DNA of 64,000 bases from Candidatus Helarchaeota archaeon (GCA_019058315.1 JAHPZH010000002.1:1133910-1197909); one strand, 5' to 3'. Counted from the first letter of the stretch, positions 21,602 through 46,970 are shown. The notes: generated from the letters alone by a model not told the origin. Translations and numbers: made by a program.

Positions 21602-21691
21602 ATCTCATCCAGAATTAATAAAAAATGTTCTTTATACCAAAAAATCCAATTTAAATAATATTTTTATAATATTATTTTTTGAAATAATAAA

Positions 21692-22186
21692 TTATTTTGA
21701 ATTTATAAAATTAACAAAATCTACTCCACAATGTACACATATTTTAGCTTTATCTGGATTTTCTTTTTTACAATTTGGACAAATCGGTATTTTATTATAA
21801 TTTGTACGATTTACAATTAACTTAGCCCTTTTCAATAATACAAATTTTCTAACTGTTTTTACACAAACGCGTACCACTTCAATACTAAGTATAATATTGA
21901 TTACTGAGATTAGACTAAAAATTAGATGAGAACGAAAAGCAAGAGAAATAATAAAGATATTACTCGGGATTAAGAATAATATTGTTAATAATCTGAATGT
22001 ATACTTAATTTCAAATCTCATCGAATGTTCTATTACGAAATTTTTGGGGAAATGACTTGATATCATTAGTAAACAGATAAGCACAGTAAAAACTAAGAAA
22101 GCTATCAGAAGTCCTTCATTTACTTTTTTATAATTATAGTTGTCCAGAAATATTATAATAAATAGAACTTCAAGCATTATCCTCAA
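21692..22186 (-). CDS. membrane protein with C-terminal zinc ribbon
   Basis: 3-4 TM then CPNC...CVHCG; start may be ATG 22177. Confidence 0.72.
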   Translation of the reverse strand: MRIMLEVLFIIIFLDNYNYKKVNEGLLIAFLVFTVLICLLMISSHFPKNFVIEHSMRFEIKYTFRLLTILFLIPSNIFIISLAFRSHLIFSLISVINIILSIEVVRVCVKTVRKFVLLKRAKLIVNRTNYNKIPICPNCKKENPDKAKICVHCGVDFVNFINSK

Positions 22187-22265
22187 AACATCTGTAAAAA
22201 TATCTATTTTTAAAAGTTTGTAAATAGGAAATTAAAAAAGAAATTTATAAAAATAAGCTCCTTTT

Positions 22266-23642: not shown

Positions 23643-23912
23643 TTTTCTCACAAATGAAATTAATTTACAGTTAATACATAAGAATATATCGTTAATAATT
23701 AGAAAAGTTAAATTTTAAAAGCTAATAGTAAGAAAAATCAAATATAAGTGAGTTAATAATTTAAATCTATATTATTTTAACTAGGAAAATACCATTTTGA
23801 CTAAAGATGGTAGAAAATTGAATAAAATGATTTATAAACGAAATTAAATGAAATAGTCTATTTATTTTTCCATCATTTTTATAATTTCGAATTAGAAAAA
23901 AAAAAAGAAAAA

Positions 23913-31946: not shown

Positions 31947-32145
31947 TTCTTTAACTCCTCGGAAGTTTTATCGGATTATAGTATATGATTTCTATTTATA
32001 GATTTATCGAATTAAAATAATTTTTATTAAAGTATAATTACTAAAAAAATATCTGCAATAAATTTATGAAGGATGAAAACACATACATAGAATTATTCAT
32101 CAGAATTGCATAAAAATCTTTTAGAAAAAATTAGAGGTGTTTTGG

Positions 32146-32976
32146 ATGCGTTATAAAGGTTTTAAACTTCTCAAAATTCGTATTGATCGCGGAGTTGCGT
32201 TTGTAACTATTGATAATCCACCGATTAATGTTCTAACTATGGATTTAGTAGCAGAACTCAGCCGTTTAGCAACAAAGGTCAAAAAAGACGATGATGTACG
32301 TGTAATCGTTTTTGATAGCGCCAATCCGGACTTTTTTATAGCTCATTTTGATGTTAATTTTCTCGCCCAAGCACCAGATGAAGTCCCACCTAAACCTACT
32401 CAACCTCATGTGCTTCATCAAGTGAATGAAGCATTTCGTACTATGCCAAAGGTCTCAATTGCTAAGATTGAAGGTATAAATCGTGGTGGTGGTAGTGAGT
32501 TTGTATTGGCTCTAGATATGAGGTTCGGAGCCATTGGTAAGGCTGTTCTGGCCCAACCAGAAATCATGATAGGTATAATACCCGGTGGGGGTAGCACACA
32601 AAGACTTCCACGTCTCTTGGGGCGTTCCCGAGCTCTAGAAGTCGTGCTTAGTGGTTTGGACCTTTCAGCTGAATTGGCTGAAAAGTATGGGTACATAAAC
32701 CGTGCTCTTCCTCCAGATAAAATAACGTCAGTTGTTAATGCTCTAGCCTATCGAATTGCTTCCTTCCCAGCTGAGACAATCGCATTAGCTAAAAAAGCTG
32801 TACTGGCAGCCGAGGAGTTGCCGCTCAAAGAAGGGTTACTCGAAGAAGAACATTTATTTAATCAATCATTAGCTCTACCAGCAGCTAAGGAACGAATGAA
32901 AATGTTCCTCGAATTTGGTGGTCAAACACGCGAAACGGAACTTAATTTGTCTAATTTATTAGATAAAATTAGTTAA
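32146..32976 (+). CDS. enoyl-CoA hydratase/isomerase (crotonase) family protein
   Basis: DNPPIN, FFIAHFD, GINRGGGSEF, QPEI.IGIIPGGGSTQRL; ATG after GAGGTG. Confidence 0.92.
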   Translation: MRYKGFKLLKIRIDRGVAFVTIDNPPINVLTMDLVAELSRLATKVKKDDDVRVIVFDSANPDFFIAHFDVNFLAQAPDEVPPKPTQPHVLHQVNEAFRTMPKVSIAKIEGINRGGGSEFVLALDMRFGAIGKAVLAQPEIMIGIIPGGGSTQRLPRLLGRSRALEVVLSGLDLSAELAEKYGYINRALPPDKITSVVNALAYRIASFPAETIALAKKAVLAAEELPLKEGLLEEEHLFNQSLALPAAKERMKMFLEFGGQTRETELNLSNLLDKIS

Positions 32977-33021: not shown

Positions 33022-34758
33022 ATGAGTGAAATTGTTATGACTGAAAAGGATGAAGTAAAGGAAAAATTGGTAGACCCCGAGTCTATAAAGGAATTGGAAA
33101 AAGAAAAACGGAAAAAATCCAGAAAAAAAAGAAGAGAAGAAGAACAAAAAATAATGTTTCCTACAAAGATGACCAGATATATTTGGTTTGTTATCATTTT
33201 CGCTTCACTTGTCAATGGTTTTGATAGTTGGTGTTCAGTTGCACTCAACTTGGCTATGGGATCATTAGTTGAAAATTATGATATTTTAGGGAAATTAACA
33301 AACCCGAATCTATTTGTATACTTTGGTCTCGCAGGCAGTCCTGTTACGATGGGGGTTATACTTAGCATTGCGGGGACTGGAGTCATTGCTGCAACTTCAT
33401 TTAAATACTTGACTGATAAATATGGTCGAAGACCATTAACCCTTTTGACCGCTATTCTCTTTACAGCTTTTACTGTTTTAACAGCATTTGCACCAGCAAC
33501 TTCCGAAGGTTTGTTAATATTTCTTACTTTTAGAGTTTGCTCAAATTTCTTTCTTGCTGCTGATGTTGTAATAATAATCGTAGCCGAAGAAAGTCCCAAT
33601 CATTTACGAGGACGGTTAATTGGAATAGTGTTTGCATTAAGTGCACTTGGAGGAACGGCTTGTGGGCTGGTTCAATCAGCAGGAGTTAGAATTCCGATCC
33701 CTGGTCCTTGGGGATTTGGTGGATCTTGGTCAAGTCACATGACTGTTTGGCAAAGTATGTTCTTTCTATCCATAATTGGCTATTTATTTATTATTCCTCT
33801 GTTTTTCTTTCTTAAGGAGACCGGACCATTTAAAGTCATGAAAAAATATGAGGATTGGAGAAAGAAGAAGGGGTTAAAACCTAAAACTGGTTGGTTTACT
33901 CCTCTACAAAGAAAATATGCACGTGGTCTAACTGTTGGTTGTGTTATTGTATTTCTAGCTCAATTGATGTATTTTTCTCAAGGAACATTTTTTGCACTTT
34001 ATTATGCAAAAGAACTTAATGTAAGTACTGGACGTTTGGGAATTTTATCATTCCCGGTGTTAGTATCGGGAGGGCTTGGGCTTTTTATAGCTGGTTCAGT
34101 TATTGATAGATGGGGAAGATTACCGACTCTACACCGGGCTGGTATGGGAGCTATGATCACAGGCGCTTCATATGCTTGGCCGTCTATATTCATTGCTGGC
34201 GATATACCAAATTCTCTTATTACAGGTATTGTAGTATTAAGTTTATCATTATTTATTTTTTTTGTTACATTAATGCTTGTATGTGGTGCTTTGGCTGGGA
34301 TCGAAATGGTGCCAACCCATATTCGCTCGACTACCCAAGGATGGATAGGAGCTATTTCTCGAGCAGCTGTGATGGCGGTCCCAATAATGGTAATGTTCGG
34401 AGCGGAAGCTGTAGGTGGATTAGGGCTTTCATATCAATTTATTTTTGCATTAAATGTAATGCCTTTAACAACAATTATGTTTACAGTTTACGTTTTGGCT
34501 GTTGAAGGAAAAGGACGTCAAATCGATGAAATAGTAGCTACAGAAATTTACTCTAAAATGAAGAGGGTGAGCGATTATAATAAACCTTATTACTACTATT
34601 TTCTTACTATGACTGCACAATTTACTTGCCTAACGATATACGGTCTCACAACAAATGGAACTCTTTTAGGCATAATTATAATGGTCAGTATATATTTTAG
34701 TATATCAATTATATGTTTTATAATAATTATAATTGTCCGAGGATGGTTCACAGAATAG
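33022..34758 (+). CDS. MFS transporter (sugar-porter-like motifs) with two extra C-terminal TMs, paralogue 1
   Basis: LTDKYGRRP motif A, EESPNHLRGR, LKET, DRWGR, E.VPTHIRST, EGKG. Confidence 0.9.
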   Translation: MSEIVMTEKDEVKEKLVDPESIKELEKEKRKKSRKKRREEEQKIMFPTKMTRYIWFVIIFASLVNGFDSWCSVALNLAMGSLVENYDILGKLTNPNLFVYFGLAGSPVTMGVILSIAGTGVIAATSFKYLTDKYGRRPLTLLTAILFTAFTVLTAFAPATSEGLLIFLTFRVCSNFFLAADVVIIIVAEESPNHLRGRLIGIVFALSALGGTACGLVQSAGVRIPIPGPWGFGGSWSSHMTVWQSMFFLSIIGYLFIIPLFFFLKETGPFKVMKKYEDWRKKKGLKPKTGWFTPLQRKYARGLTVGCVIVFLAQLMYFSQGTFFALYYAKELNVSTGRLGILSFPVLVSGGLGLFIAGSVIDRWGRLPTLHRAGMGAMITGASYAWPSIFIAGDIPNSLITGIVVLSLSLFIFFVTLMLVCGALAGIEMVPTHIRSTTQGWIGAISRAAVMAVPIMVMFGAEAVGGLGLSYQFIFALNVMPLTTIMFTVYVLAVEGKGRQIDEIVATEIYSKMKRVSDYNKPYYYYFLTMTAQFTCLTIYGLTTNGTLLGIIIMVSIYFSISIICFIIIIIVRGWFTE

Positions 34759-34830
34759 AAACTATATTCAAATACCTCTCTGACAAATTTAAGAGAAATT
34801 GAGTAATTAACAGTCCAAGAGGGATATTAT

Positions 34831-34962
34831 TTACCTCCCTAACCACTCCTGAAATGAAAATAGAGGATCTCCTTTAAAAAATTCTAGATATATTAATGTA
34901 ATAATGATAAAAAATATACATAAACCAATGGCTACAACAGTATAGATTTGATAATTTTCCAT
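34831..34962 (-). CDS. unannotated 43-aa single-TM microprotein, paralogue 1
   Basis: MENYQIYTVVAIGLCIFFIIITLIYLEFFKGDPLFSFQEWLGR*, AAGGT upstream; same-length paralogue at 36910-37041. Confidence 0.8.
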   Translation of the reverse strand: MENYQIYTVVAIGLCIFFIIITLIYLEFFKGDPLFSFQEWLGR

Positions 34963-35099
34963 CTTGTTTACCTTTTGAATCCTATAATTTAAATATATAT
35001 TTGAATATGTAGTTGTTTACCAAATTATTAAATTCTTATAATTTAAATTTTGAATTTGGAAATAATAACAAAAACCCCATTATATTTGACAAGGAGATT

Positions 35100-36836
35100 A
35101 TGCGAGAGATTTGTATGACTGAGAAGGACGAAGTAAAGGAAATAATTGCAGATCCAGAGTCTGTAAAAAAATTAGAAAAAGAAGAACGCAAAAAATCCAG
35201 AAAAAAAAGACGAGAAGAAGAAGAAAAAATAATGTTTCCTACAAAGATGACCAGATATATTTGGTTTGTCATAATCTTCGCTTCAATTGTCAATGGATTC
35301 GACAGTTGGTGTACAGTAGCAATCACTTTAGCTATGGGATCACTGGTAGAAACATATGATATTTTGGGGAGTTTAACAAATCCTAATCTTTTTGTATATT
35401 TTGGTCTCGCAGGCAGTCCTGTTACGATGGGGGTTATACTTAGCATTGCGGGGACTGGAGTCATTGCTGCAACTTCATTTAAATATCTGGTTGATAAATA
35501 TGGTAGAAGACCATTAACTCTTTGGACTTGTATTCTATTTACAGCTTTTTCTGTTTTAACTGCGTTCGCACCAGCTACATCTACTGGATTGGTAATATTT
35601 TTAATATTTAGAGTTTGCTCAAATTACTTTCTTGCTGCTGATGTTGTAATAATAATCGTAGCCGAAGAAAGCCCAAACCACTTACGAGGACGATTAATTG
35701 GAATAGTTTTTGCATTAAGCGCATTTGGTGGAACAGCTTGTGGAATGGTCCAATCAGCAGGAGTTCGAATTCCGATTGCTGGACCTTGGGGATTTAATGG
35801 AGCTTGGTCAAGTCACATGACTGTTTGGCAAAGCATGTTCTTCCTATCCATAATTGGCTACTTATTTATTATTCCACTATTTTTATTTCTTAAGGAGACT
35901 GGACCATTTAAAGTAATGAAAAAATATGAGGATTGGAGAAAGAAGAAGGGGTTAAAGCCTAAAACTGGTTGGTTTACTCCTTTACAAAGAAAATATGCAC
36001 GGGGTATGGCAGCTGGTTGCGTTGTAGGGTTTTTAGCTCAATTAATGGCATATGCTCAAGGTACATTTTTTGCAATTTATTTTGCAAAAGAATTGAATTT
36101 AACTCCTGATGTGTTAGGAGTTTTAGCATTCCCTGTATTAATGGCTGGAGGAGTTGGACTTTTTATAGCTGGTCCAGTTATTGATAAATGGGGTAGACTA
36201 CCTACTATTCATAGATTCGGTGTTGGAGGTTTAATTGCATATGCATCATTCGTATGGCCTTCTGTTTTTATTGTTGGTGACTTACCCAATGCCCTTATTA
36301 CTGGTATAGTCACATTCAGCACCGCTTTGGGTGCCTTTTGTGTTACTATAATGGTTGTTTGTGGTGCACTTATTGGTATTGAATATTTTCCAACTCATAT
36401 CCGAAGTACTGCAGGGGGATGGATCGGTGCAATCTCAAGAGGAGCCGTTATGGCTGCCCCAATAATGGTGATGTTCGGGGCTGAAAGCATAGGTGGGTTA
36501 GGGTTATCATATCAGTATATATTCGCACTTATGGGAATGCCGTTGACGACTGTTATGTTTACCGCTTATGTATTGGGTGCTGAAGGGAAAGGTCGGGGAC
36601 TTGATGAGATAGTAGCTGCAGAAATCTATACTAAAATGAAGAAAGATAGGGAGTATAAGAGACCATATTATTACTATTTTATTTCTATGATTGTACAATT
36701 CGTTTCCCTTACAATATACGGTCTTTGTACTAGCGGAAGCATTTTTGGCATAATTTCAATGGTTAGTTTATATTTTATTTTATCAGTAATATGTTTCCTT
36801 ATAATAATGAAGGTTCGAGGAATGGTCACAGAGTAA
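35100..36836 (+). CDS. MFS transporter with two extra C-terminal TMs, paralogue 2
   Basis: colinear with paralogue 1 from MREICMTEKDEVKE (ATG 35100); same motifs. Confidence 0.9.
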   Translation: MREICMTEKDEVKEIIADPESVKKLEKEERKKSRKKRREEEEKIMFPTKMTRYIWFVIIFASIVNGFDSWCTVAITLAMGSLVETYDILGSLTNPNLFVYFGLAGSPVTMGVILSIAGTGVIAATSFKYLVDKYGRRPLTLWTCILFTAFSVLTAFAPATSTGLVIFLIFRVCSNYFLAADVVIIIVAEESPNHLRGRLIGIVFALSAFGGTACGMVQSAGVRIPIAGPWGFNGAWSSHMTVWQSMFFLSIIGYLFIIPLFLFLKETGPFKVMKKYEDWRKKKGLKPKTGWFTPLQRKYARGMAAGCVVGFLAQLMAYAQGTFFAIYFAKELNLTPDVLGVLAFPVLMAGGVGLFIAGPVIDKWGRLPTIHRFGVGGLIAYASFVWPSVFIVGDLPNALITGIVTFSTALGAFCVTIMVVCGALIGIEYFPTHIRSTAGGWIGAISRGAVMAAPIMVMFGAESIGGLGLSYQYIFALMGMPLTTVMFTAYVLGAEGKGRGLDEIVAAEIYTKMKKDREYKRPYYYYFISMIVQFVSLTIYGLCTSGSIFGIISMVSLYFILSVICFLIIMKVRGMVTE

Positions 36837-36909
36837 GGATTTATATTTAAATATGGTTTTAATCAAATTAAGAATGATCTACTCTCTATTAAAAAATAAG
36901 GGAAATCTT

Positions 36910-37041
36910 TTATCTCCCTAACCAATCCTGAAGTGCAAATAGAGGATCACTTTTAAAAAATACAAGATAGGTTATTGTAACAATTACAAAAATTAAACTT
37001 ACACCAATAACTGCAATAGTATAAACTTTATAATCTTCCAA
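36910..37041 (-). CDS. unannotated 43-aa single-TM microprotein, paralogue 2
   Basis: TTG start after GTGA: MEDYKVYTIAVIGVSLIFVIVTITYLVFFKSDPLFALQDWLGR*. Confidence 0.8.
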   Translation of the reverse strand: MEDYKVYTIAVIGVSLIFVIVTITYLVFFKSDPLFALQDWLGR

Positions 37042-37212
37042 TTTATTCACAGCTTCTTTTTTTTTCCTTTATTTTTCATATTAATACTTAATAATTTTTA
37101 TCTTAATTTTCTGTTTTGAAAGAAAATATGATAAATCTTCTTATAAATTGAACTTTATTTTTATTGGATAAAAAAAAATAGATTTCATACATTTTAAAAA
37201 GAAATTTCAGCA

Positions 37213-39012
37213 CTATAAGCTGAAATATCGCCTTTTTTGAGAATCATCCATACCCTTAATCCAAAAAAATGCGTCTTCTTTATTATCTACTAAATTATTT
37301 TTTCCTTTTAAAATACTGTTCCATGGAAAAGATTTTGGATCAAACAGACCTATTCCTGAATCTGTCCACCATTCAATGCGTTGTTTTATCATTTCAAGAG
37401 AACGATGGTCCCAAACTTGAAAAGAAGTATAACATTGGAATGTATCCATTTTTCTCATAGCTTGAAAAATTTTTTGAGTGATAATATTTTTTCGTCTTTT
37501 AGAATCAAGAGAATAATATTGAAAAAGTAGAATTAAAATTTCAGTCGCTTCCTGAATACTTTTCAATGGTTCTAGTACTTCTTTTTGTTGTTTAATTATC
37601 CTTTTTAAAATTTTGTTGCATTCTTTTAATTTATCACCGTCTAAAGTTCTCCAAAAATCCTCAAGTAATAAAATTGCATTTTTAACATCTTCTTTTTCGT
37701 TCATAGAAGATGAAAGCAAACCCGCAACTTCGCTGCTGATTTCATTACCTCCAATTTCAGGATTCCAAAGATATCTTCCGAAAACATAATCATCGATAAA
37801 ACGGGTTTTAGGTAATACCCTATACCCAACCATACCTTTCAAATTTGGACCTAATGCTTTTATTGAATCTGTTATTCTTTCTTTTAACAAATGTATATGA
37901 GGTCTTGGAAATATCAATTGGTTTTCCATACCAGCTTCTGGATCGATTAAAAATACAAAATCATATACCTCGTAACCTTGCTCTATAGCCATTTTTAGTG
38001 TTTTTTGGGTTATATCTAAAATCTTAATATCCTTTGGAAATTTCGAAAATAATTGATCTCGGAGCCCCTCGATAGGTGGAATTTCAAAATCTTCTTTAAT
38101 ATTCGCAAACCAGGTCATAAAGAAGAGCCGTTTCGAGTTTCCATTTTCTTTAATAAATTTCAGATGTTCAACAAGTAGATCGGCAATATTATTCCTACAA
38201 TATTCGCAATTACAACCTCCACCTTCAAAAGAAATCGAAGCATGACTAGGAACTGTATTAAATCTTTTAATTGTGTATTTAAGGAGTTTATCACCAATCG
38301 CTTTTCCTTTTTGGGTACAATGAGTAACTCCCTGATAAAGAAAGATTTCTGCTCTAATCTCTGGGAATTTAATCCATAATTCGGTAGGGATTTCATCAAA
38401 AACATATAATGAAATGATTTCAAGACCTATATCTGCGGCATATTTAAATACTTTATCTAAAACGTCATATCTCCATGCATTTTTTTCCAATTCTTCGTAA
38501 TCAGGATGATATAACATTACTGCATGCATTATAAACATAATTGAGTTGTAATTAAATGACCGAAGCCTATTGAAATATTCTTTCCACTGTGAGAACGTCC
38601 AATTTTCAGTCGAAAGATCCCCTAATCCATAAGGCATATTTACCATCATACAACGTGTTTCAAAGAATGGAGTTTCAAATATATTCCAATCAATTGAAAA
38701 AGGATCTTGTGTTTGCTGTTCCTTTAGCTTCATATGTAGATAATATATTCCATTTGCAAGACCTTGGTCCCCTATAGATGAAATAAAAATATCTTCATTT
38801 TTGCTATAAATTAGAAAATCATCAATTTTTTTCAGTTTATTTGCATTCTCTAAATTTAATTTTCGAATTTCTTCTGAATTATTTTGCAAAGTTAGAAAAG
38901 TAATAGTTCTAGTTGAATTTGAATCTGATTCTCCAATCCAACTTGCTAAAACCTTAATAGCTTGTTCAATTTGTTTGGTTTTATTATTATTATAACTTAT
39001 TTTATAAGTCAT
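37213..39012 (-). CDS. putative glycoside hydrolase (GH20/GH67-type N-domain + TIM barrel, CxCxxC), paralogue 1
   Basis: DDFLI...IFISSIGDQGLANGIYYL; TPFFETR...W....WKEY..RL....YN; FEGGGCNCEYC; no signal peptide. Confidence 0.6.
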   Translation of the reverse strand: MTYKISYNNNKTKQIEQAIKVLASWIGESDSNSTRTITFLTLQNNSEEIRKLNLENANKLKKIDDFLIYSKNEDIFISSIGDQGLANGIYYLHMKLKEQQTQDPFSIDWNIFETPFFETRCMMVNMPYGLGDLSTENWTFSQWKEYFNRLRSFNYNSIMFIMHAVMLYHPDYEELEKNAWRYDVLDKVFKYAADIGLEIISLYVFDEIPTELWIKFPEIRAEIFLYQGVTHCTQKGKAIGDKLLKYTIKRFNTVPSHASISFEGGGCNCEYCRNNIADLLVEHLKFIKENGNSKRLFFMTWFANIKEDFEIPPIEGLRDQLFSKFPKDIKILDITQKTLKMAIEQGYEVYDFVFLIDPEAGMENQLIFPRPHIHLLKERITDSIKALGPNLKGMVGYRVLPKTRFIDDYVFGRYLWNPEIGGNEISSEVAGLLSSSMNEKEDVKNAILLLEDFWRTLDGDKLKECNKILKRIIKQQKEVLEPLKSIQEATEILILLFQYYSLDSKRRKNIITQKIFQAMRKMDTFQCYTSFQVWDHRSLEMIKQRIEWWTDSGIGLFDPKSFPWNSILKGKNNLVDNKEDAFFWIKGMDDSQKRRYFSL

Positions 39013-39154
39013 TTCTTTTCAACATATTTCCATTTGTAGAGTGTATGCAATTTTTATATTTTAATTATTTAACTTTTTCGCAAATTTAAATTTACAAATG
39101 TTCTAGATTTATTGACATTTGAAAGTAAAGATTTTTAGTTTTACATAAAATATG

Positions 39155-40963
39155 TTATCCCCAAAATTGCGGAATTCTCATACCTTTAATCCAAGGTTGA
39201 ACATCTTTTTTCTCATCAATTAAATGATATTTTGCTTTTAAAAGACAGTTCCATGGAAATGATTTTGGATTAAAAAGTCCACTTCCAGGATCTGTCCACC
39301 AACGAACTCGCTGTTTTATCATCTCAAGTGACACAGCATTCCAAGCTTGATATGAGGTATAGCACTGGAATGTGTCCATCTCCCTCATAAGTTGAAATAT
39401 TTTTTGAATAAGCCCCTGTCTTCGTCTTTGGGAGTCAATCGAATAATATCGAAAGAGCAATTCTAAAATTATAATCGCTTCTTGGATGCTTTTCAATGGT
39501 TCTGATATATTTTTATTTTTTTTATTAACCATTTTTAAAATATTCTTACATTCCTTTAATTTTTCACCGTCAAAAGTTCTCCAAAAATCCTCAAGTAATA
39601 GAATTGCATTGGTTACGTTTTCTTTTTCCTTTATAGAAGAAGATAGCAAACCCGCAACTTCGCTAATGATGTTATTAACTTCAATTCCAGGATTCCAAAG
39701 ATATCTGCCTAAAAGATAATCATTAATAAAACGCGTTTTAGGTATTAATCTATAACCAACCATTCCTTTAAGATTTGAACCTAATGCTTTTATTGAATCT
39801 GAGATTCGTTCTTTTAACAAATTTATATGAGGTTTAGGAAAAAGGGATTGATTTTCCATACCTTCTTCAGGATCTATGAAAAATATAAAATCATATATCT
39901 CATAACCTTGATTTGCTGCCATTTTTAACGTTTTTCTGTTCACATCTATAATTTTTACTTCCTTTGGAACCTTAGAAAACAATTTTTCACGAAGTCCTTC
40001 AATTGGGGGTGATTCAAAATGCTCTTTTACATTGGCAAACCAGGTGCAAAAAAATAAATGCTTTGGTTGTGCATTTTTATTAATAAAATCCAAATAATTT
40101 ATAATAAGATCGACAATGTTGTTCCTACAATATTCACAATTGCATACTCCTCCCTCAAATGCAAACAGAGCATGACCATCCACATTTTTAAATCTATTGA
40201 GGGTGTAACTAAAAAGTTTTTCTCCAAACTTTCTTCCTTTTTCGCTACAATATGAAATACCTTGATAACCAAAGACTTTCGCTCTGATTTCTTGATGTTT
40301 AATCCATAAATCTGTTGGAATTTGATTAAAAACATATATTAAAATGATTTCTAGACCTATATCCCTTGCATAAGTAAAAACTTCTTCAAATATATCATAT
40401 TTCCAAGAATTTTTTCTCAATTCTTTAAAATTAGGATTATATAGCATCGCTCCTCCAATTGTAAACACAATCGAAGTATAGTTAAAAGATCGAAGTCTAT
40501 TTAGATACTCTATCCACTGTGAAAAAGTCCAAGTTTCAGTAGATAGCCCCCCCAAACCCAATGGAAAATGTAAGGTCACCCCTCGAGTTTCAAAATGTGG
40601 TGTTTGAAAAAGATCCCAATTAATGGAGAATGGGTCTTGTTTTTGACATTCTCTTAATTTCATGTACAAATAATATATAGCATTTGCAAGCCCTCGGTCC
40701 CCAATGGACAAAATAAAAATCTTATTTTCTTTATCTTGATTGTTTTTATTGTCACTAGAAATTAAAAAATCATCTACTTTTTTTAGATTATTCACTTTCT
40801 CTAAATTTAATTTTTGAATTTCTTTTGAATTATTTTGAAGTGTAAGAAAATTAAAAGTGTTTTTAGCATTTGAATCAGGTTTTCCAGCCCAACTTGTAAA
40901 AACCTTAATAGCTTGTTCGATTTGTTTGTTCCTATTTTTATTAAAATATATTTTGTAGGTCAA
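39155..40963 (-). CDS. putative glycoside hydrolase, paralogue 2
   Basis: colinear with paralogue 1; TPHFETRG, FEGGVCNCEYC; TTG start. Confidence 0.6.
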   Translation of the reverse strand: MTYKIYFNKNRNKQIEQAIKVFTSWAGKPDSNAKNTFNFLTLQNNSKEIQKLNLEKVNNLKKVDDFLISSDNKNNQDKENKIFILSIGDRGLANAIYYLYMKLRECQKQDPFSINWDLFQTPHFETRGVTLHFPLGLGGLSTETWTFSQWIEYLNRLRSFNYTSIVFTIGGAMLYNPNFKELRKNSWKYDIFEEVFTYARDIGLEIILIYVFNQIPTDLWIKHQEIRAKVFGYQGISYCSEKGRKFGEKLFSYTLNRFKNVDGHALFAFEGGVCNCEYCRNNIVDLIINYLDFINKNAQPKHLFFCTWFANVKEHFESPPIEGLREKLFSKVPKEVKIIDVNRKTLKMAANQGYEIYDFIFFIDPEEGMENQSLFPKPHINLLKERISDSIKALGSNLKGMVGYRLIPKTRFINDYLLGRYLWNPGIEVNNIISEVAGLLSSSIKEKENVTNAILLLEDFWRTFDGEKLKECKNILKMVNKKNKNISEPLKSIQEAIIILELLFRYYSIDSQRRRQGLIQKIFQLMREMDTFQCYTSYQAWNAVSLEMIKQRVRWWTDPGSGLFNPKSFPWNCLLKAKYHLIDEKKDVQPWIKGMRIPQFWG

Positions 40964-41156
40964 TTAAAATTCACTATTGTTTATAAATTGGGGATATTCT
41001 CCTTATAAATCAGTTTTATATAACAGTTCTGCAATTCTAGAGCATATTTAATTACTAGTTTAAGGATATTTAAACGTCATACAATAAATATTTAAATAAA
41101 TGTTATCTAGTTTAGGTCATTAATTTTGGTTTAAAAAGATTTATTTGGTGAAAAAA

Positions 41157-41927
41157 ATGACAGTAACATTGGAATATTACTTTCAATTTTATTCAAACAA
41201 GCTATTTGGTCGTTCAATTTTTTCAGACCCAATGGAACTATTTTTATTTACAATTTCCTTTTTAAGCTTATTGTTTTTAATTGGTATAATATGGACATTA
41301 TATAACGGTTATAAAGAAACTAGAGTTATTGAAACTTTATTATTTTTATTAAGTATGATCTCTTTTTTAATTGCTGGTGTACTTGGAAGCATAGAGAGAA
41401 TAAGTTATTCGACTTGGGGTTTACCTCAACTCGGAGATCTCCTACATATAATCGTTTTATTTCCTATGCAATTTTCATTTCTATGTGTTAATACCTTTGC
41501 AATACGGATTACATTTCCCGAAAAATTCAATATGATTATTTCTTTCTTAATCGTACTATCCACTATTTTGATAACTATTATAACCTGGGCAATGATTCAG
41601 GGACCTCCTTATGCGATCATAATTAATTTTGCTGTGGTTCATTCCAATGAGGTCGGGATAGTAGTTTTAGCAACCCTTGCACCAGTTGCTGTAATGCCAC
41701 TAGCTATTTTCTTTTATTCGGCTAAGAAAATTCGAGATGAAGATAGACCAAAAAGTAATCGTTCTTTCTGGTTTGGAATGGGATTTTTATTTTTTACTTT
41801 AGGTGCAGGTTTAACAACACCTACTACCCCATATTTTGCTGTTTTCAGCATTTTTGCTGCATTTACTCTCTATGTTTGCTTTAGAATGCCAAACTGGTTC
41901 AAACGACACATAGGATGGATTGAATAA
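41157..41927 (+). CDS. stand-alone 7TM membrane protein, paralogue 1
   Basis: seven TM segments, C-terminal MPNWFKR amphipathic tail; ATG after GGTGA. Confidence 0.8.
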   Translation: MTVTLEYYFQFYSNKLFGRSIFSDPMELFLFTISFLSLLFLIGIIWTLYNGYKETRVIETLLFLLSMISFLIAGVLGSIERISYSTWGLPQLGDLLHIIVLFPMQFSFLCVNTFAIRITFPEKFNMIISFLIVLSTILITIITWAMIQGPPYAIIINFAVVHSNEVGIVVLATLAPVAVMPLAIFFYSAKKIRDEDRPKSNRSFWFGMGFLFFTLGAGLTTPTTPYFAVFSIFAAFTLYVCFRMPNWFKRHIGWIE

Positions 41928-42143
41928 CTCATTTATATGTGCTCATAAATCACCAATGAGTCCTTTATTAAAGAACAAAGAACAATAATTAATAATCAAA
42001 TACACTTGTAGAACAATTTATGCTTTAGAAAACAACCAAAAAAAAATTAAATCCAAAGATTTTAAAATTAAGGATTTAATAAAACTTCTTGCAGTTATTA
42101 AAATTCAACTGAAAATCTAAAAAGGATGCAATGAGTGAAAAAA

Positions 42144-42914
42144 ATGGCAGTTTCATGGGATTATTATTTTCAATTTTATACAAATCAGATATTTGGACGT
42201 TTTTTTTATGTACAACCACTAGAAATTTTGGTAATAATATTTGCGTTTATAGGATTATTATTTTTAATTGGTATTATGCGGGCTTTATATAGGAATTATA
42301 AGAAATCTAATGCTATTGAAACTTTATTATTTTTAATAAGTATGATCGCTTTTTTAGTGGGTGGTGTCCTTGGAGGGATAGAGAGATTCTGTTATTCAAC
42401 TTGGGGTTTGCCACAACTAGGAGATTTAATACGAATAACTGTAATATTTCCTGTTTATTTTTCATTTATAAGTGTTAATATATTTGCTTTGAAAACTACG
42501 TTTCCAGAAAAATTTAAGATCATTCTTCCTTTTTTATTGATATTAACTATTGTTAGTGCAGGAACTGTAATTTGGGCAGAATTGCAAGGTCCTCCATACG
42601 CTAGAATTATTAATTTCGCTGTGGCCTACTCTCTTGAGATTAATTTAATACGTCTCATAACTCTTTCACCACTTGCTGTAATTCCAACAACTCTTTTTTT
42701 CTATTATGCAATAAAAAATCGAATTGAAGATAAACCAAAAAGTAATCTCTCATTCTGGCTGGGAATGGGATTTTTATTTTTCACTGTAGGTTCTGCTTTA
42801 ACATCAGCTGGAACTGAATTCTTTGGGCTTCTATTTATTTTGTCAGCAGCTATTTTCTATGTGTGCTTTAAAATGCCAGGATGGTTTAAAAAGTGTATAG
42901 GATGGCCTGAATAA
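42144..42914 (+). CDS. stand-alone 7TM membrane protein, paralogue 2
   Basis: colinear with paralogue 1 (YYFQFY, ER..YSTWGLPQLGDL, TFPEKF, QGPPYA.IINFAV, MP.WFK..IGW). Confidence 0.8.
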   Translation: MAVSWDYYFQFYTNQIFGRFFYVQPLEILVIIFAFIGLLFLIGIMRALYRNYKKSNAIETLLFLISMIAFLVGGVLGGIERFCYSTWGLPQLGDLIRITVIFPVYFSFISVNIFALKTTFPEKFKIILPFLLILTIVSAGTVIWAELQGPPYARIINFAVAYSLEINLIRLITLSPLAVIPTTLFFYYAIKNRIEDKPKSNLSFWLGMGFLFFTVGSALTSAGTEFFGLLFILSAAIFYVCFKMPGWFKKCIGWPE

Positions 42915-42929
42915 CACTCCCATATAACA

Positions 42930-44747
42930 TTAAATCTCCCATAATTCTGAAATTTTCGTTTCTTTTATCCAAGGCAATACATCTTTTTTATCATTAATCA
43001 AGTGATATTTTGCTTTTAGAAGGCAGTTTGCTGGAAAAGACCTTGGATTAAAATTACCACTTTCAGGATCTGTCCACCAATGAACTCGCTGTTTTATTAC
43101 CTCAATTGACACGGCATTCCAAGCTTTATATGATGTATAGCAATGAAATGTTTCAGTATTTCGCATAACTTGCATAATTTTTTGAATAATTGCTCTTTTT
43201 CGTCTTTTAGAGTCATGTGTATAATATCGAAAGAGCAATTCTAAAACTATAATCGCTTCTTGGATGCTTTTCAATGGTTCTGACATATTTTTTTGTTCTT
43301 TAATGACCATATTTAAAATTTTCTTACATTCTTTTAATTTATTACCGTCTAAATTTATCCAAAAATCCTCAAGTAATTGAATTACTTTTATTACGTTTTC
43401 TTTTTCGTTTATAGAAGAAGATAGCAAACCCGCAACTTCACTAATAAGTTCATCAACTTCAATTTTAGGATTCCAAAAATATCTACCCTCAACATAATCA
43501 TTAATAAAACGCGTTTTAGGTATTAATCTATAACCAAACATTCCTTTTAGAGAGAGAGAGGGTAATGTTTGAATTGAATCTAATATTCGTTCCTTTGACA
43601 AATTTATAAGAGGTCTTGGAAAAAGAGATAGATCTTCCATTCCTGCTTCGGGATCCATAAAAAATATAAAATCAAATATTTCATAGCCTTGATCTGCAGC
43701 CATCTGTAAGGTTTTTCTGCATACGTCTATGATCTTTACATCTTTAGGAATCTTAGAAAATAATTTATTCCGAAGCCCTTTAATTGGAGGTGATTCAAAG
43801 TGCTCTTTTACATTAGCAAACCAAGTTATAAAGAAAAGTCGTTCTGGCTCTGCATTTTTTTTAATAAAATTCAGGTAATCAACAATAAGATCAACAATAT
43901 TGTTCCTACAATAATCACAATTACAACCGCCCCCCTCAAAGGCAAAAAGAGCATTACTTGGGACTGTTTTAAATCTATTAAGTGTGTATTTAAGAAGTTT
44001 TTCCCCAATTTCTTTTCCTTTTTCACTGCAATGGGTGATTCCTTGATAACCAAATATATGTCCCCTTATTTCTGGAAATTTAATCCATAATTCAGTTGGT
44101 ATATGATTAAAAACATAGATTAAAATGATTTCCAGACCTATATCCTTTGCATAATTAAATACATCTTCAAACATATCATATTTCCAGGAATTTTTTTTCA
44201 ATTCCTCAAAATCAGGGTGATATAGTGCCCATGTACTTATTAGAAATATAATCGATGTGTAATTAAATGACCGAAGTCTATCCAAATATTCTTTCCAATG
44301 TGGAAAATCCCATGTCTCAGTGGAAAGTCCCTCTAAACCAAGTTTAAGATTAAGAAGAACCATACCACGTGTTTCAAAGTAGGGGGTTTGAAAAATATCC
44401 CATTTAATAGAAAACGGGTCTTTTATTTGCTGTTCTCTTAATTTCATGTATAAATAGTATATAGCATTTGCTAGACCTCGCTCTCCTATCGATAAAATAA
44501 AAATATCATTTTCTTTACGTTGATTTTCATTCTTTTCGCTAAAAATTAGAAAATCGTCTATTTTTTTAAGTTTATTCGCTGTCTCTAAGCTTAATTTTTG
44601 AATTTCTTTGGAATTTTTTTCCAATGTGAAAAGAACAAATTCATTTGTTGAATTTGAATCTGATTCTCCAATCCAATTTGTTAAAACTTTAATAGCTTGT
44701 TCAATTTGCTTGCTTTTATTCTTATTGAACCTTATTTTGTATTTCAT
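42930..44747 (-). CDS. putative glycoside hydrolase, paralogue 3
   Basis: colinear with paralogues 1 and 2; TPYFETRG, FEGGGCNCDYC. Confidence 0.6.
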   Translation of the reverse strand: MKYKIRFNKNKSKQIEQAIKVLTNWIGESDSNSTNEFVLFTLEKNSKEIQKLSLETANKLKKIDDFLIFSEKNENQRKENDIFILSIGERGLANAIYYLYMKLREQQIKDPFSIKWDIFQTPYFETRGMVLLNLKLGLEGLSTETWDFPHWKEYLDRLRSFNYTSIIFLISTWALYHPDFEELKKNSWKYDMFEDVFNYAKDIGLEIILIYVFNHIPTELWIKFPEIRGHIFGYQGITHCSEKGKEIGEKLLKYTLNRFKTVPSNALFAFEGGGCNCDYCRNNIVDLIVDYLNFIKKNAEPERLFFITWFANVKEHFESPPIKGLRNKLFSKIPKDVKIIDVCRKTLQMAADQGYEIFDFIFFMDPEAGMEDLSLFPRPLINLSKERILDSIQTLPSLSLKGMFGYRLIPKTRFINDYVEGRYFWNPKIEVDELISEVAGLLSSSINEKENVIKVIQLLEDFWINLDGNKLKECKKILNMVIKEQKNMSEPLKSIQEAIIVLELLFRYYTHDSKRRKRAIIQKIMQVMRNTETFHCYTSYKAWNAVSIEVIKQRVHWWTDPESGNFNPRSFPANCLLKAKYHLINDKKDVLPWIKETKISELWEI

Positions 44748-44861
44748 TTTTTATTCACTAAGAAATAAACTAATTTTTTTGACCTTAGATAAAAATCCTA
44801 AAAAATAAAATTTATATTTTTGAATTTAATAATATTATCTAAAATCATTATGGGGAATATT

Positions 44862-46403
44862 TTGGTTAAAAGTAAGGCTCTAATAGTTTTAATAGTATTA
44901 ATAATCCTACCATCTATTTCCTATAATCTTGACGCTTGCATTAAATCTCCAGTAATCCCTTTTAATTTTTTAAATAATATTAAAACACAAAAGGATCCTC
45001 AACTCTTCACCAAACATGCTGAGATGATATCAAATTCGTCTGAAGATAATTATAGACCAAAGATAGCTATTGATTCATCTAATGAAATTCATTCCGTTTG
45101 GTATTCTCGTGACTATCCGATAAATGATTCTATAATTTATTCTAACAGCACCGATAACTTTACAAATAAAATGAAGATCACAGAAAGCTATCCCAAAGAT
45201 ACTGATCCATGTATTGCTATAGATAATTCGGATACGATTCATATAGCTTGGATTAGAGATTCTGAACCAGGTTGGTTGACTGATCCAACTGAAGTATATT
45301 ATACGAATAGTTCTGTTAATTTTTCAACACATAAGCTTGTAGTAAATCAAACTGAAGTTGATTCACCACAAATAGGTTGTGATTCTTTTAATAATGTACA
45401 TATAGCATGGCTGGGGTACAAAGACTTCCAATGGAATGTTTTTTATTCAAATAGTACGGATTATTTTTCATCAATAAAATATGTATCTCAGGATAGTTTA
45501 AGGGATTATTCGATAAGTCTGTGTGTTAAGGATGATGTTGTTCATATAATTTGGCGAAAATATATTGCTTATAAAAAATATAGAATTGCATATGCAAATA
45601 GTTCTAACGATTTTACAGAAACCATAATTTCAAAAAATGATGCGTATTATGAAAGTCCAAAAATCAAAGTTGATGATTCGGGTAATATCCATATTATTTA
45701 TGTAGAACGTTATGAAAAAAAGGAAGAAGACCCAATCGATAAAGAAGTTTTTATCTCCTTTTTTATTTCTTATATTTATCTAGATTATTTCAATGATCAA
45801 CCTTTTGGATTTTTTAATTTTGATGTTATAATCGTTTACCTTGCCATATTTGATTGGATTCATGGTTCTAATTATAATTATGAATATTTCTCTAGAATTT
45901 ATTATTCAAATAGTAGTGATAATTTTAACTCACGGAGTAGTCTCTCAAATTTAACATCAACTTGTGTTTGGTATCCCGATATTGCTATTGATCAATATAA
46001 TACTTGCCATTTAATATGGCAAGGAGCAAATTACTATTATTCAAATATATATCGTATATTCTATACAAATAGCTCTAAAAAATTTCAAGAATTCTATATC
46101 TATAAATCAGAATATGCAATTGATCATTCTGATTTTGAGATTGATGGTAAAAATGAAACTCATTTTATATATTCCGCATATAGAAACATTTGGTATTTTA
46201 ATAGCTCTGAATTAGAATACTATCCAGTTTCCATTGATACTGATATTATTATAGATTTAATTAATCTCTATTTTTCTATTCCAAAAATGCCAGATTTAAC
46301 AAATTTAACTATAATTTCGATTTATTGTTTAGCTGCTTTTAATGTTATTGCTCTTTATCTTCCAAAAAAAAGAAGGGATGCTCAAAGTATGGGGGAATCA
46401 TAA
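44862..46403 (+). CDS. cell-surface beta-propeller-like repeat protein with C-terminal TM
   Basis: signal peptide; repeats P.IAID..N.IHI.W....IYYSNSSDNF; C-terminal TM + KKRR; start TTG 44862 or ATG 44850. Confidence 0.78.
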   Translation: MVKSKALIVLIVLIILPSISYNLDACIKSPVIPFNFLNNIKTQKDPQLFTKHAEMISNSSEDNYRPKIAIDSSNEIHSVWYSRDYPINDSIIYSNSTDNFTNKMKITESYPKDTDPCIAIDNSDTIHIAWIRDSEPGWLTDPTEVYYTNSSVNFSTHKLVVNQTEVDSPQIGCDSFNNVHIAWLGYKDFQWNVFYSNSTDYFSSIKYVSQDSLRDYSISLCVKDDVVHIIWRKYIAYKKYRIAYANSSNDFTETIISKNDAYYESPKIKVDDSGNIHIIYVERYEKKEEDPIDKEVFISFFISYIYLDYFNDQPFGFFNFDVIIVYLAIFDWIHGSNYNYEYFSRIYYSNSSDNFNSRSSLSNLTSTCVWYPDIAIDQYNTCHLIWQGANYYYSNIYRIFYTNSSKKFQEFYIYKSEYAIDHSDFEIDGKNETHFIYSAYRNIWYFNSSELEYYPVSIDTDIIIDLINLYFSIPKMPDLTNLTIISIYCLAAFNVIALYLPKKRRDAQSMGES

Positions 46404-46970
46404 ATGTCAAGCAACAATATACGTGTTTTACGTTTTTTTTATGATTCAATTATTATTTTCTTTATTTTAATACTCATTCTTCCTCTTAGGGTTGCATATG
46501 AAATTTCGCTTTCTATATATAATTTGATTTTTGTAGCTCATAATTTACCATTTATTATTTCCCGAGGATCAATTCTATTTATTCTTGCTTTGATAATTTT
46601 CATAATTAGTATATTTTTATTCCGGAAGTTCTATAAAACAGAAGATGGGAAATTTGCTAAATATGGATATATTGCAAGTTTGATCTCATGTTTATTTGCC
46701 GGACAGTCAATATTAATTAATTATATCATTTATTTTTATCGAATGATTAATATCGCTTCTATTTATATAGGAATCGTTCTGGTTCTTACAGAATTAAATA
46801 TTAGTACATTGATATTTTTAAGACGTAATGATTTAGAAGACGTAAAACAAAGCAAAAAGATAAAAAAACATACAAAGATTGATTGGTATTGTCCTAAATG
46901 TGGAACCAAGAGAGAAATTGAATATAAATTTTGTATAAACTGTGGATTTTCATTTAATAAATTAGATTAA
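46404..46970 (+). CDS. 4TM membrane protein with C-terminal zinc ribbon
   Basis: four TMs, WYCPKCG...FCINCG; abuts the upstream stop (TAAATG). Confidence 0.8.
   Translation: MSSNNIRVLRFFYDSIIIFFILILILPLRVAYEISLSIYNLIFVAHNLPFIISRGSILFILALIIFIISIFLFRKFYKTEDGKFAKYGYIASLISCLFAGQSILINYIIYFYRMINIASIYIGIVLVLTELNISTLIFLRRNDLEDVKQSKKIKKHTKIDWYCPKCGTKREIEYKFCINCGFSFNKLD

What the first reader, a model, noticed from the sequence alone, without database searches (positions are those of the whole stretch)
33022..44747. Candidate undescribed glycan sense-import-hydrolyse locus made entirely of paralogues (2 MFS, 2 microproteins, 3 GH-like enzymes, 2 7TM proteins)
Seen: nine consecutive genes from only four families, arranged MFS1> <uP1 MFS2> <uP2 <GH1 <GH2 7TM1> 7TM2> <GH3. 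Every family is expanded, all copies are intact and diverged, and no transposase is present. GH3 is divergent from a surface beta-propeller gene. Known: the MFS proteins carry sugar-porter-like motifs and the ~600-aa proteins have a GH20/GH67-like architecture. Inference: an archaeal counterpart of a polysaccharide-utilisation locus, with oligosaccharides imported by the MFS pair, cleaved by cytoplasmic isoenzymes of different specificity and possibly sensed by 7TM proteins; no DNA-binding regulator lies in the block.
Basis: partly seen in the sequence, partly recalled or inferred. Interest (0 to 1): 0.82.

Follow-up and report, generated by a model that had tools for sequence, protein, structure and literature searches.

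The report
Duplicated transporter and hydrolase gene cluster
An Asgard archaeon carries a cluster of duplicated membrane transporters (each with a tiny membrane partner), three enzymes of an uncatalogued sugar-cleaving type and two receptor-shaped membrane proteins; the genes are real, but only the transporter, its small partner and the enzyme are linked in another genome, so this is probably an uptake-and-cleavage cluster and not a full sensing system.

Summary
In detail: nine intact ORFs from four families lie exactly where stated. Paralogues share 56-79% amino-acid identity (dS 0.29-0.86). Contigs from an independent study bridge most gene junctions, so this is not a mis-assembly.

The ~600-aa proteins match no Pfam or NCBIfam model. 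They model as a GH20b-like N-domain, a TIM barrel and a helical bundle (GH20C Z 20.8; also GH115, GH138, GH84, GH67). Distant relatives keep an acidic residue after strand 4, a DPExGxE motif and four cysteines, and sit beside sugar ABC importers, sulfatases or a GH84-like enzyme.

The microproteins are a real family. Four of five copies in this genome flank an MFS of this subfamily, orthologues exist in two other assemblies, and a complex model passes its controls.

The "archaeal PUL" reading is only partly supported. The MFS family has 15 copies and the 7TM family 26 across the genome, almost all elsewhere. The hydrolase-like gene has no MFS or 7TM neighbour in any other genome context examined, except one sister contig carrying ECH> MFS> <uP <GH-like.

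Best reading: a lineage-specific import-and-hydrolysis cluster for an unknown glycoside, with the 7TM pair probably a passenger. This scan had already noted the same stretch, as unchecked first-reader notes only.

The parts
32137..32976 (+). Enoyl-CoA hydratase/crotonase-family gene directly upstream of MFS1. It is the conserved left-hand neighbour.
   Evidence: Pfam ECH_1 4.9e-35. A 91% identical orthologue directly precedes the MFS in the sister contig L040.
33022..34758 (+). MFS1, a 578-aa transporter with a basic/acidic N-terminal tail, a 12-TM core and about two extra C-terminal TM helices.
   Evidence: Pfam MFS_1 3.6e-19 and Sugar_tr 2.8e-15. 79% identical to MFS2. dN/dS 0.19.
34831..34962 (-). 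uP1, a 43-aa single-pass membrane microprotein convergent with MFS1.
   Evidence: ORF. Member of a family with 5 copies in this genome sharing M-E-x-Y-K, one TM helix and an FFK-x-DPLF tail.
35100..36836 (+). MFS2. The ORF opens at 35013; the probable start at 35100 gives 578 aa.
   Evidence: Pfam MFS_1 1.7e-24. The database form P0150 is 578 aa. 86% identical to the single MFS of sister contig L040.
36910..37041 (-). uP2, a 43-aa microprotein convergent with MFS2 (TTG start by homology; the ORF extends to 37050).
   Evidence: 74% identical (alignment; 70% by tblastn) to the 43-aa gene called at the same position in L040. Complex model with MFS2: score 0.66, best control 0.00.
37213..39012 (-). 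GH1, a 599-aa GH20-fold enzyme of an unclassified family with no signal peptide.
   Evidence: No Pfam or NCBIfam hit. In the tree it groups with P0018 and P0021, apart from GH2 and GH3. 87% identical to the partial gene in L040. Keeps R127, E271, D365, E367, Y406, R407 and the four Cys.
39155..40963 (-). GH2, a 602-aa paralogue.
   Evidence: 73% identical to GH3 and 66% to GH1. Conserved residues are intact.
41157..41927 (+). 7TM1, a 256-aa stand-alone seven-helix membrane protein.
   Evidence: AlphaFold2 model with pLDDT 89 showing 7 TM helices. One of 26 copies in the genome.
42144..42914 (+). 7TM2, a paralogue 57% identical to 7TM1.
42930..44747 (-). GH3, a 605-aa paralogue and the protein that was modelled.
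   Evidence: Model pLDDT 76.8, pTM 0.82, with an N-terminal alpha/beta domain at 1-115, a TIM barrel at about 120-425 and a helical bundle at 430-560. GH20C Z 20.8 over 471 residues.

Best explanation
This is a lineage-specific cluster built by old tandem duplications in an Asgard genome, probably Helarchaeales judging by the names on its nearest homologues. Its core is an importer joined to a cytoplasmic enzyme. The importer is a 14-TM MFS transporter of an Asgard-restricted subfamily. It probably works with a 43-aa single-pass partner that packs against the transporter's C-terminal half, including the first of its two extra helices. The enzyme has no signal peptide and belongs to an uncatalogued family with the GH20-type three-domain architecture. 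The proposed catalytic residues are an acidic residue after barrel strand 4 (E271) and the invariant E367 in the DPExGxE motif after strand 7. A Cys4 cluster (C240, C275, C277, C280) is probably structural and metal-binding. The proposed mechanism is that an unidentified glycoside or oligosaccharide is imported by MFS-uP and cleaved inside the cell by three diverged isoenzymes. Shown: gene structure, paralogy, fold, conserved residues, MFS-uP adjacency. Inferred: hydrolase activity, substrate class, MFS-uP binding, and the import-to-hydrolysis coupling. The two 7TM genes belong to a 26-copy receptor-fold family spread across the genome and are most likely passengers that landed inside the GH-like array, not this locus's dedicated sensors.
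For: GH-like enzymes:
- Foldseek matches GH115, GH138, GH20, GH84 and GH67 at E 1e-13 to 1e-11.
- VIA-align gives GH20C/GcnA Z 20.8, rmsd 4.7, with 471 residues aligned across all three domains.
- Atlas neighbours carry GH67N, GH20b or GH115 labels.
- A profile search finds 123 clusters (50% identity), some with CBM9 or weak GHL6, GHL10, GH67N or GH20b hits.
- Across relatives of 18-33% identity, R127, W151, E367 and R407 are invariant, position 271 is always E or D, and the four Cys are nearly invariant. All three window copies keep them.
- Distant relatives sit after a sugar-type ABC importer and before an arylsulfotransferase and sulfatases (L068), or directly after a GH84-like NAGidase (L069).
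- Asgard orthologues lie near GH88, GH94, GH4 or GT4 genes.

Import and enzyme link:
- The sister contig L040 has ECH> MFS> <uP <GH-like, at 91%, 86%, 70% and 87% identity to the window's ECH, MFS2, uP2 and GH1.
- In L068 a different class of importer is adjacent to a distant relative.

MFS and uP:
- Four of the five uP copies in the genome lie within about 200 bp of an MFS of this subfamily, at three independent loci.
- A syntenic orthologue of uP3 exists in GCA_013375355.1.
- Complex model: score 0.66, best of 3 controls 0.00. That mark was reached by 58 of 80 solved complexes and 2 of 110 mismatched pairs, and the counts hold only roughly because my own alignments were used. The runs agree in at least 86% of contacts and the partner's pLDDT is at least 70. 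The model supports binding but does not show it.

7TM as passenger:
- There are 26 copies, in tandem arrays of 5, 4 and several of 2, elsewhere in the genome.
- Same-order genomes carry 2-5 copies each. In G124, the one same-order genome that also has the GH-like gene, the 7TM copies lie on other contigs than that gene.
Against: No activity, substrate or expression data exist. The MFS substrate is open: the best NCBIfam hits are weak and mixed (aromatic-acid, cation and sugar-porter subfamilies, all far below cut-off). Other copies of this MFS subfamily sit next to unrelated genes such as HGD-D, FAD oxidases, AFOR, HAD and peptidases, and only one array lies near a GH13. The MFS/GH-like link is seen only in this genome and one close relative, where shared ancestry alone could explain it. 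A more recurrent neighbour of the GH-like gene is a crotonase-family gene, which this explanation does not account for. The model has low confidence (pLDDT under 50) at 362-378, around the proposed catalytic E367. The catalytic residues were placed from predicted strands and conservation, not by superposition on a solved active site.
Confidence: 0.45

Rival explanations
1. One reading: an integrated archaeal counterpart of a polysaccharide-utilisation locus. The 7TM pair senses the glycan, the MFS pair imports it and three isoenzymes cleave it, all under common control.
For: The 7TM pair lies between GH2 and GH3 and is divergent from GH2. The 7TM model resembles the seven-helix input modules of histidine kinases, GGDEF and MEDS proteins (TM 0.64-0.70) and GPCR transmembrane domains (best Z 15.9 over 209 residues). 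All parts are intact and under purifying selection.
Against: No 7TM gene lies next to a GH-like gene in any other genome examined. The other 24 copies in this genome are not next to MFS or GH-like genes; the nearest case is 12.7 kb from an MFS array. The proteins have no output domain and no regulator lies in the block. There is no operon structure. Z values of about 13 or less are common for helical bundles, so the fold match says little about function (note).
Confidence: 0.12
2. Coincidental juxtaposition in a duplication hot spot. The families are functionally unrelated. The MFS-uP units import a non-sugar substrate linked to the surrounding acyl-CoA and organic-acid genes, and the GH-like enzymes work with other partners.
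For: Contig C5 between 1.166 and 1.299 Mb holds 5 of the 15 MFS copies, 7 of the 26 7TM copies and all 3 GH-like genes. The flanks encode FAD oxidases with a CCG protein, two crotonases, a thiolase and a CoA ligase. FAD_binding_4 plus CCG genes also lie near an MFS of this subfamily in another contig of the sister genome. A crotonase gene is adjacent to the GH-like gene in L042, L043/L011 and L044. With about 14 7TM loci and 10 MFS loci in 5.8 Mb, my rough estimate is that some pair falling within 5 kb by chance is not rare (about 0.2).
Against: MFS-uP-GH-like adjacency is kept in the sister genome. Distant GH-like relatives also sit beside an importer. One other MFS array lies two genes from a GH13. 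The nearest solved relative of the MFS is a glucose transporter.
Confidence: 0.3
3. The ~600-aa proteins are not hydrolases. They use the GH20-type scaffold for other chemistry (phosphorylase, transglycosylase, lyase or esterase) or act as non-catalytic binding proteins.
For: There is no sequence match to any curated GH family. The GH20 D-E pair is absent (F270-E271). A crotonase neighbour recurs without explanation. One Atlas neighbour cluster carries an acetyltransferase domain.
Against: The named matches in the structure searches are glycoside hydrolases, and the remaining Atlas clusters are unnamed apart from one acetyltransferase-labelled cluster. Acidic residues are conserved after strands 4 and 7, the usual catalytic positions in TIM-barrel glycosidases (established knowledge of clan GH-A; residues). 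dN/dS of 0.24 argues against decaying pseudo-enzymes.
Confidence: 0.1

Closest known systems
GH20 beta-N-acetylhexosaminidases with a C-terminal helical domain (S. pneumoniae GH20C, S. gordonii GcnA), and the wider GH20/GH84/GH67/GH115/GH138 architecture
   Same: The same three-domain layout: an N-terminal alpha/beta domain, a (beta/alpha)8 barrel and a C-terminal helical bundle. Z 20.8 over 471 residues. Foldseek E 1e-13 to 1e-11. An arginine on barrel strand 1 (R127) is invariant.
   Different: There is no detectable sequence similarity to PF00728 or any other GH Pfam model. The D-E pair of GH20 and the D-D pair of GH84 (from my knowledge of those families) are replaced by F-E followed by G-G-G-C-x-C-x-x-C. 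The family also has a Cys4 cluster and a DPExGxE motif.
Non-PUL sugar-utilisation clusters: an importer next to a cytoplasmic glycosidase, as is common in Gram-positive bacteria and archaea
   Same: A transporter gene lies beside signal-peptide-less glycosidase-like genes. A distant relative of the enzyme lies beside a sugar-type ABC importer.
   Different: There is no operon, regulator or binding protein. The transporter subfamily is not tied to carbohydrate genes elsewhere.
Bacteroidota polysaccharide-utilisation loci (SusC/SusD type)
   Same: Only the general idea of clustering uptake genes with glycan-cleaving genes.
   Different: There is no SusC/SusD pair, no surface glycan-binding protein, no hybrid two-component or ECF regulator, and no conservation of the gene set across genomes.
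MFS transporters with a single-pass accessory subunit, such as MFSD1-GLMP (PMC11252000) and MCT1-basigin (the latter from my own knowledge)
   Same: A one-helix membrane protein is predicted to pack against the C-domain of an MFS transporter, and the two genes are persistently adjacent.
   Different: The partner is only 43 aa and has no extracellular domain. It has been found in three related assemblies so far. Binding is predicted, not shown.
Prokaryotic 7TM receptor input modules (HisKA_7TM and relatives) and the Asgard '7TM protein' signature families mentioned in bioRxiv 10.64898/2026.10.28.762692
   Same: A seven-helix bundle with the same helix arrangement. Atlas TM 0.64-0.70 to modules fused to HisKA, GGDEF or MEDS domains. 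GPCRs fill the top 50 of the exhaustive PDB comparison, apart from two designed GPCR-like folds and one microbial rhodopsin.
   Different: The proteins stand alone with no output domain. There is no Pfam match above threshold. The family is expanded to 26 copies in one genome.

Membership tests
CAZy GH20 | Sequence match to the GH20 catalytic domain (Pfam PF00728) | tested here: not met
   No Pfam hit at E 0.01 for the three proteins. None among 19 family members at E 5.
CAZy GH20 | Adjacent Asp-Glu catalytic pair after barrel strand 4, for substrate-assisted catalysis (from knowledge of the family) | tested here: not met
   The alignment shows F270-E271 in the Asgard clade and x-D-P-G in distant relatives. 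Placement on strand 4 comes from the predicted secondary structure, not from superposition.
CAZy GH20 | N-terminal GH20b-type domain plus a (beta/alpha)8 barrel | tested here: met
   VIA-align Z 20.4-20.8 to GH20 structures, covering residues 1 to about 560.
Glycoside hydrolase in general | Measured hydrolysis of a glycosidic bond | not testable with these tools
   Only fold, conserved acidic residues and gene context are available.
Bacteroidota-type PUL | SusC-like TonB-dependent transporter paired with a SusD-like lipoprotein | tested here: not met
   None of the nine products matches such Pfam families.
Conserved functional gene cluster (the four families as one unit) | Co-occurrence of the families as neighbours in related genomes | tested here: not met
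   The GH-like gene is found in 6 of 400 Asgard genomes. No MFS, uP or 7TM gene lies in its flanks in L009-L016 or L041-L044. Only MFS-uP-GH-like is kept, in sister contig L040.
Sugar porter subfamily of MFS (TIGR00879) | Score above the curated subfamily cut-off | tested here: not met
   25.8 bits against a cut-off of 237.8 for MFS1, and no hit for MFS2.
Pfam Sugar_tr (PF00083) / MFS_1 | Score above the gathering threshold | tested here: met
   Sugar_tr 56.6 and 51.9 bits (cut-off 22.3). MFS_1 69.3 and 86.9 bits (cut-off 33.4).
MFS with a single-pass accessory subunit | Physical complex between the transporter and the one-helix protein | tested here: inconclusive
   Complex model score 0.66, best control 0.00. 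The mark was reached by 58 of 80 solved complexes and 2 of 110 mismatched pairs. Contact agreement is at least 86% and partner pLDDT at least 70. This is a prediction only.
7TM receptor input module (HisKA_7TM-like) / GPCR fold | Seven-helix receptor fold coupled to an output domain or partner | tested here: inconclusive
   Fold similarity TM 0.64-0.70 and Z up to 15.9. There is no output domain and no Pfam match above threshold.

The most novel reading that the evidence does not exclude
The cluster is a working nutrient module peculiar to Asgard archaea. Stand-alone GPCR-fold 7TM receptors detect a glycan and control an MFS importer that needs a 43-aa single-pass subunit, and the importer feeds a new glycoside hydrolase family. 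That would pair eukaryote-like receptor and transporter-subunit logic with carbohydrate use.
Probability: 0.08. Interest if true: 0.8.

Novelty: new variant of a known kind. Interest (0 to 1): 0.45.

Why it matters
Three parts can each be tested on their own. First, the ~600-aa proteins represent a glycosidase-like family with no Pfam, NCBIfam or solved relative by sequence. It has about 120 sequence clusters in archaea and bacteria and a clear candidate active site, so it is a candidate new CAZy family. Second, a 43-aa membrane protein that tracks a particular MFS subfamily would be a rare prokaryotic case of an MFS accessory subunit. Third, the stand-alone receptor-fold 7TM family, with 26 copies in one genome, adds to the question of what Asgard 7TM proteins do. 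The larger claim of an archaeal PUL equivalent is not supported by comparative genomics and should not be carried forward as stated.

Tried and rejected
- Sequence search of the GH-like profile against PDB chains found nothing meaningful (best E 0.08).
- Pfam and NCBIfam gave no family for the GH-like, 7TM and uP proteins.
- The bacterial-type promoter and terminator scan gave counts at shuffle level and does not apply to archaea.
- A visual comparison of intergenic spacers showed no obvious shared operator. No motif search was run.
- The uP profile against 160 other genomes of the class gave only weak hits at hydrophobic-helix level (E 1e-3 or weaker). Orthologues were found only through contigs that carry MFS homologues.
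- RNA evidence: no RNA holder is listed for the stretch, so expression could not be examined.
- In the laid contigs, runs X2 and X4 leave most of GH3 (about 43000-44500) uncovered. This is not interpreted.
- Foldseek of the 7TM model against the PDB gave no match at E 0.001 or better.
- The crotonase genes next to GH-like genes were tested for orthology. They are only 24-32% identical, so they are not one orthologous partner.
- The idea that the paralogues are recent or strain-level duplicates was rejected: dS is 0.6-0.86 for the large genes, and GH1 falls in a different subclade from GH2 and GH3.
- Literature search for Helarchaeota, glycoside hydrolase and MFS found nothing relevant.


Full report
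**Observation.** Pairwise amino-acid identities are 79% (MFS1/MFS2), 56% (uP1/uP2), 64-73% (GH1-3) and 57% (7TM1/7TM2). All are open. dN/dS is 0.19 for the MFS pair, 0.24-0.25 for the GH-like genes and 0.51 for the 7TM pair. For the microproteins it is 0.16-0.82 over very few sites. dS is 0.6-0.86 for the large-gene pairs and 0.29 for uP1 against uP2. The large-gene duplicates are therefore old and not strain variants. In three runs of a different study, 95-99% identical contigs bridge uP1-MFS2, MFS2-uP2-GH1, GH1-GH2, GH2-7TM1, 7TM1-7TM2 and GH3-propeller. This rules out a simple mis-assembly. Names on the closest homologues (Helarchaeota, Promethearchaeota, Hodarchaeota) place the genome among the Asgard archaea. 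It has 5.8 Mb in 12 contigs.

**The ~600-aa proteins.** They match no Pfam or NCBIfam model and no solved chain by sequence. An AlphaFold2 model of GH3 was built from 19 homologues (pLDDT 76.8, pTM 0.82). It shows an N-terminal alpha/beta domain (1-115), an eight-stranded barrel (about 120-425) and a helical bundle (430-560).

Foldseek finds GH115, GH138, GH20, GH84 and GH67 at E 1e-13 to 1e-11. VIA-align puts GH20 first: GH20C of S. pneumoniae at Z 20.8, rmsd 4.7, with 471 residues aligned across all three domains. ESM Atlas neighbours are mostly unnamed bacterial clusters with partial GH67N or GH20b labels, plus GH115 and GH67.

By sequence this is not GH20. The D-E pair is absent, and the strand-4 end reads F-E-G-G-G-C-x-C-x-x-C. 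A profile search of 1.84 billion representatives finds 123 clusters. Some of these are longer proteins with CBM9 or weak GHL6/GHL10 signals. Named members come from Verrucomicrobiales and Nitrospiraceae MAGs and are all annotated as hypothetical.

Across relatives of 18-33% identity, R127, W151, E367, R407, P410 and W558 are invariant. Position 271 is always E or D. C240, C275, C277 and C280 are nearly invariant, as is the DPExGxE motif at 365-371. All three window copies keep these residues. I infer an acid after strand 4 (E271), a nucleophile or base after strand 7 (E367), and a Cys4 metal site. From memory only, the Cys4 site is reminiscent of the zinc site of GH42 beta-galactosidases; this was not tested. 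None of the three has an N-terminal hydrophobic segment, so they are cytoplasmic.

**Context of the enzyme family.** The genome holds only these three copies. Among 400 Asgard genomes, 6 have the gene, single-copy outside this genome.

The neighbourhoods differ widely:
- GH88 and an aminotransferase (L014, L015, L044)
- GH94 (L044)
- GH4 (L042)
- GT4 (L016)
- YdjM and a nucleoside hydrolase (L041)
- a beta-eliminating lyase and a carboxylesterase (L012, L013)
- TIM and ARMT1-like genes (L009)

None of these holds an MFS of this subfamily, a uP or a 7TM gene.

Two distant relatives have plainly carbohydrate contexts. In L068 the order is SBP_bac_1, two permease genes, the enzyme, an arylsulfotransferase and sulfatases. 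In L069 the enzyme follows a GH84-like NAGidase. This supports a glycan-related role and shows that pairing of an importer with this enzyme recurs with a different transporter class.

A crotonase-family gene is directly adjacent in L042, L043/L011 and L044, and one stands at the left edge of the window's cluster. These crotonases are only 24-32% identical to each other. I cannot explain this association.

**The one conserved linkage.** A 3.9-kb contig of GCA_048940975.1 (L040) carries ECH> MFS> <uP <GH-like. Identities to the window's ECH, MFS2, uP2 and GH1 are 91%, 86%, 70% and 87%. The window therefore looks like that arrangement after duplication of the MFS-uP unit and the addition of GH2, GH3 and the 7TM pair. 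In the tree GH1 groups with P0018 and P0021 (support 100/100), while GH2, GH3 and P0006 branch separately. GH1 and GH2/GH3 are thus old paralogues, not recent copies.

**MFS and microproteins.** The transporters hit MFS_1 and Sugar_tr. They fall far below every NCBIfam subfamily cut-off. The nearest solved relative by profile is the glucose transporter GlcP (E 2e-10), followed by phosphate and SLC22 transporters. The substrate is therefore open.

Close homologues are all from Asgard archaea. This genome has 15 copies at 45-58% identity, including arrays of four and two. Their neighbours are heterogeneous.

The microprotein is a real gene family. The genome has five copies sharing M-E-x-Y-K, one TM helix and an FFK-x-DPLF tail. 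Four of them lie within about 200 bp of an MFS of this subfamily, at three independent loci. Orthologues occur in L040 and, in synteny with uP3, in L066 of GCA_013375355.1.

A complex model of MFS2 with uP2 gave a score of 0.66 against a best control of 0.00. That mark was reached by 58 of 80 solved complexes and 2 of 110 mismatched pairs, and the counts hold only roughly because my own alignments were used. The runs agree in at least 86% of contacts, and the partner's pLDDT is at least 70. Contacts fall on MFS residues 367-390, 476-490 and 521-543, the last lying in the C-terminal extra helices. The model supports binding but does not show it. MFSD1-GLMP is a solved precedent for an MFS with a single-pass subunit (PMC11252000).

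**7TM proteins.** The word-based search found only two outside homologues. A six-frame search and tblastn then showed 26 copies in this genome, in arrays of 5, 4 and several of 2. Same-order genomes carry 2-5 copies each.

The model (pLDDT 89) has seven TM helices, a short hairpin at 153-162 and a C-terminal helix. Atlas neighbours (TM 0.64-0.70) include Promethearchaeota hypotheticals and the 7TM input modules of HisKA, GGDEF and MEDS proteins. In the exhaustive PDB comparison the top 50 rows are GPCRs, apart from two designed GPCR-like folds and one microbial rhodopsin (best Z 15.9 over 209 residues). This is only modestly above what helical bundles give by chance. A 2026 preprint already lists 7TM proteins and GPCR-like clusters among Asgard-eukaryote families. 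Nothing ties the family to carbohydrate genes apart from this one locus.

**Synthesis.** The genes also alternate strands with separate spacers, and the block lies in a 130-kb stretch rich in copies of the same expanded families.

I rank the explanations as follows:
- An MFS-uP importer coupled to cytoplasmic hydrolysis by a new GH20-fold family: 0.45.
- Coincidental juxtaposition in a duplication hot spot: 0.30.
- The full sensing model: 0.12.
- A non-hydrolase role for the enzymes: 0.10.

Earlier notes of this scan on the same stretch made the same observations but were unchecked.

Noticed in passing
L042:7071-7898, L043:9935-10675, L044:7091-7924, L011:9498-10247; window 32137-32976: A crotonase/enoyl-CoA hydratase family gene lies directly beside the GH-like gene in at least three independent Asgard contexts, and at the edge of this cluster. 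These crotonases are only 24-32% identical to each other. The association is unexplained.
   Followed up: partly
G000 C5:1294330-1298550 (L070) and C1:269841-271556 (L073): The five-copy 7TM array lies two genes from a Ras-family small GTPase. A two-copy array is flanked by a Gtr1/RagA/Arf-like GTPase and an LRR protein. Asgard genomes hold many small GTPases, so this may be chance.
   Followed up: no
G000 C2:203754-210990 (L074): A tandem array of four MFS genes of the same subfamily lies two genes from a GH13 alpha-amylase and next to a 529-aa repeat protein. That repeat protein is 38% identical to window 23913-25496.
   Followed up: partly
G000 C3:552608-552769: The fifth microprotein copy (54 aa, with a longer tail) is not next to any MFS gene.
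   Followed up: no
window 33022-33170 and 35100-35250: Both MFS proteins begin with a cytoplasmic tail of about 45 residues that is very rich in Lys, Arg and Glu. The tail is conserved across the subfamily (R30, R34 and K49 are nearly invariant in alignment A5).
   Followed up: no
window 44820-46970; G000 C1:591613-593983: The surface repeat protein and the zinc-ribbon protein that follows it have a paralogous gene pair in the same order elsewhere in the genome (35% and 34% identity).
   Followed up: no
window 18964-23651: A GH63/MGH1-like glycosidase and a GH4 enzyme lie 10-14 kb upstream of the cluster, so the wider region holds further carbohydrate genes.
   Followed up: no
window 43000-44500: In the related strain sampled by runs X2 and X4, contigs cover GH1, GH2 and the 7TM genes but leave most of GH3 uncovered. 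Loose ends at 42035 suggest a variant junction before 7TM2.
   Followed up: no
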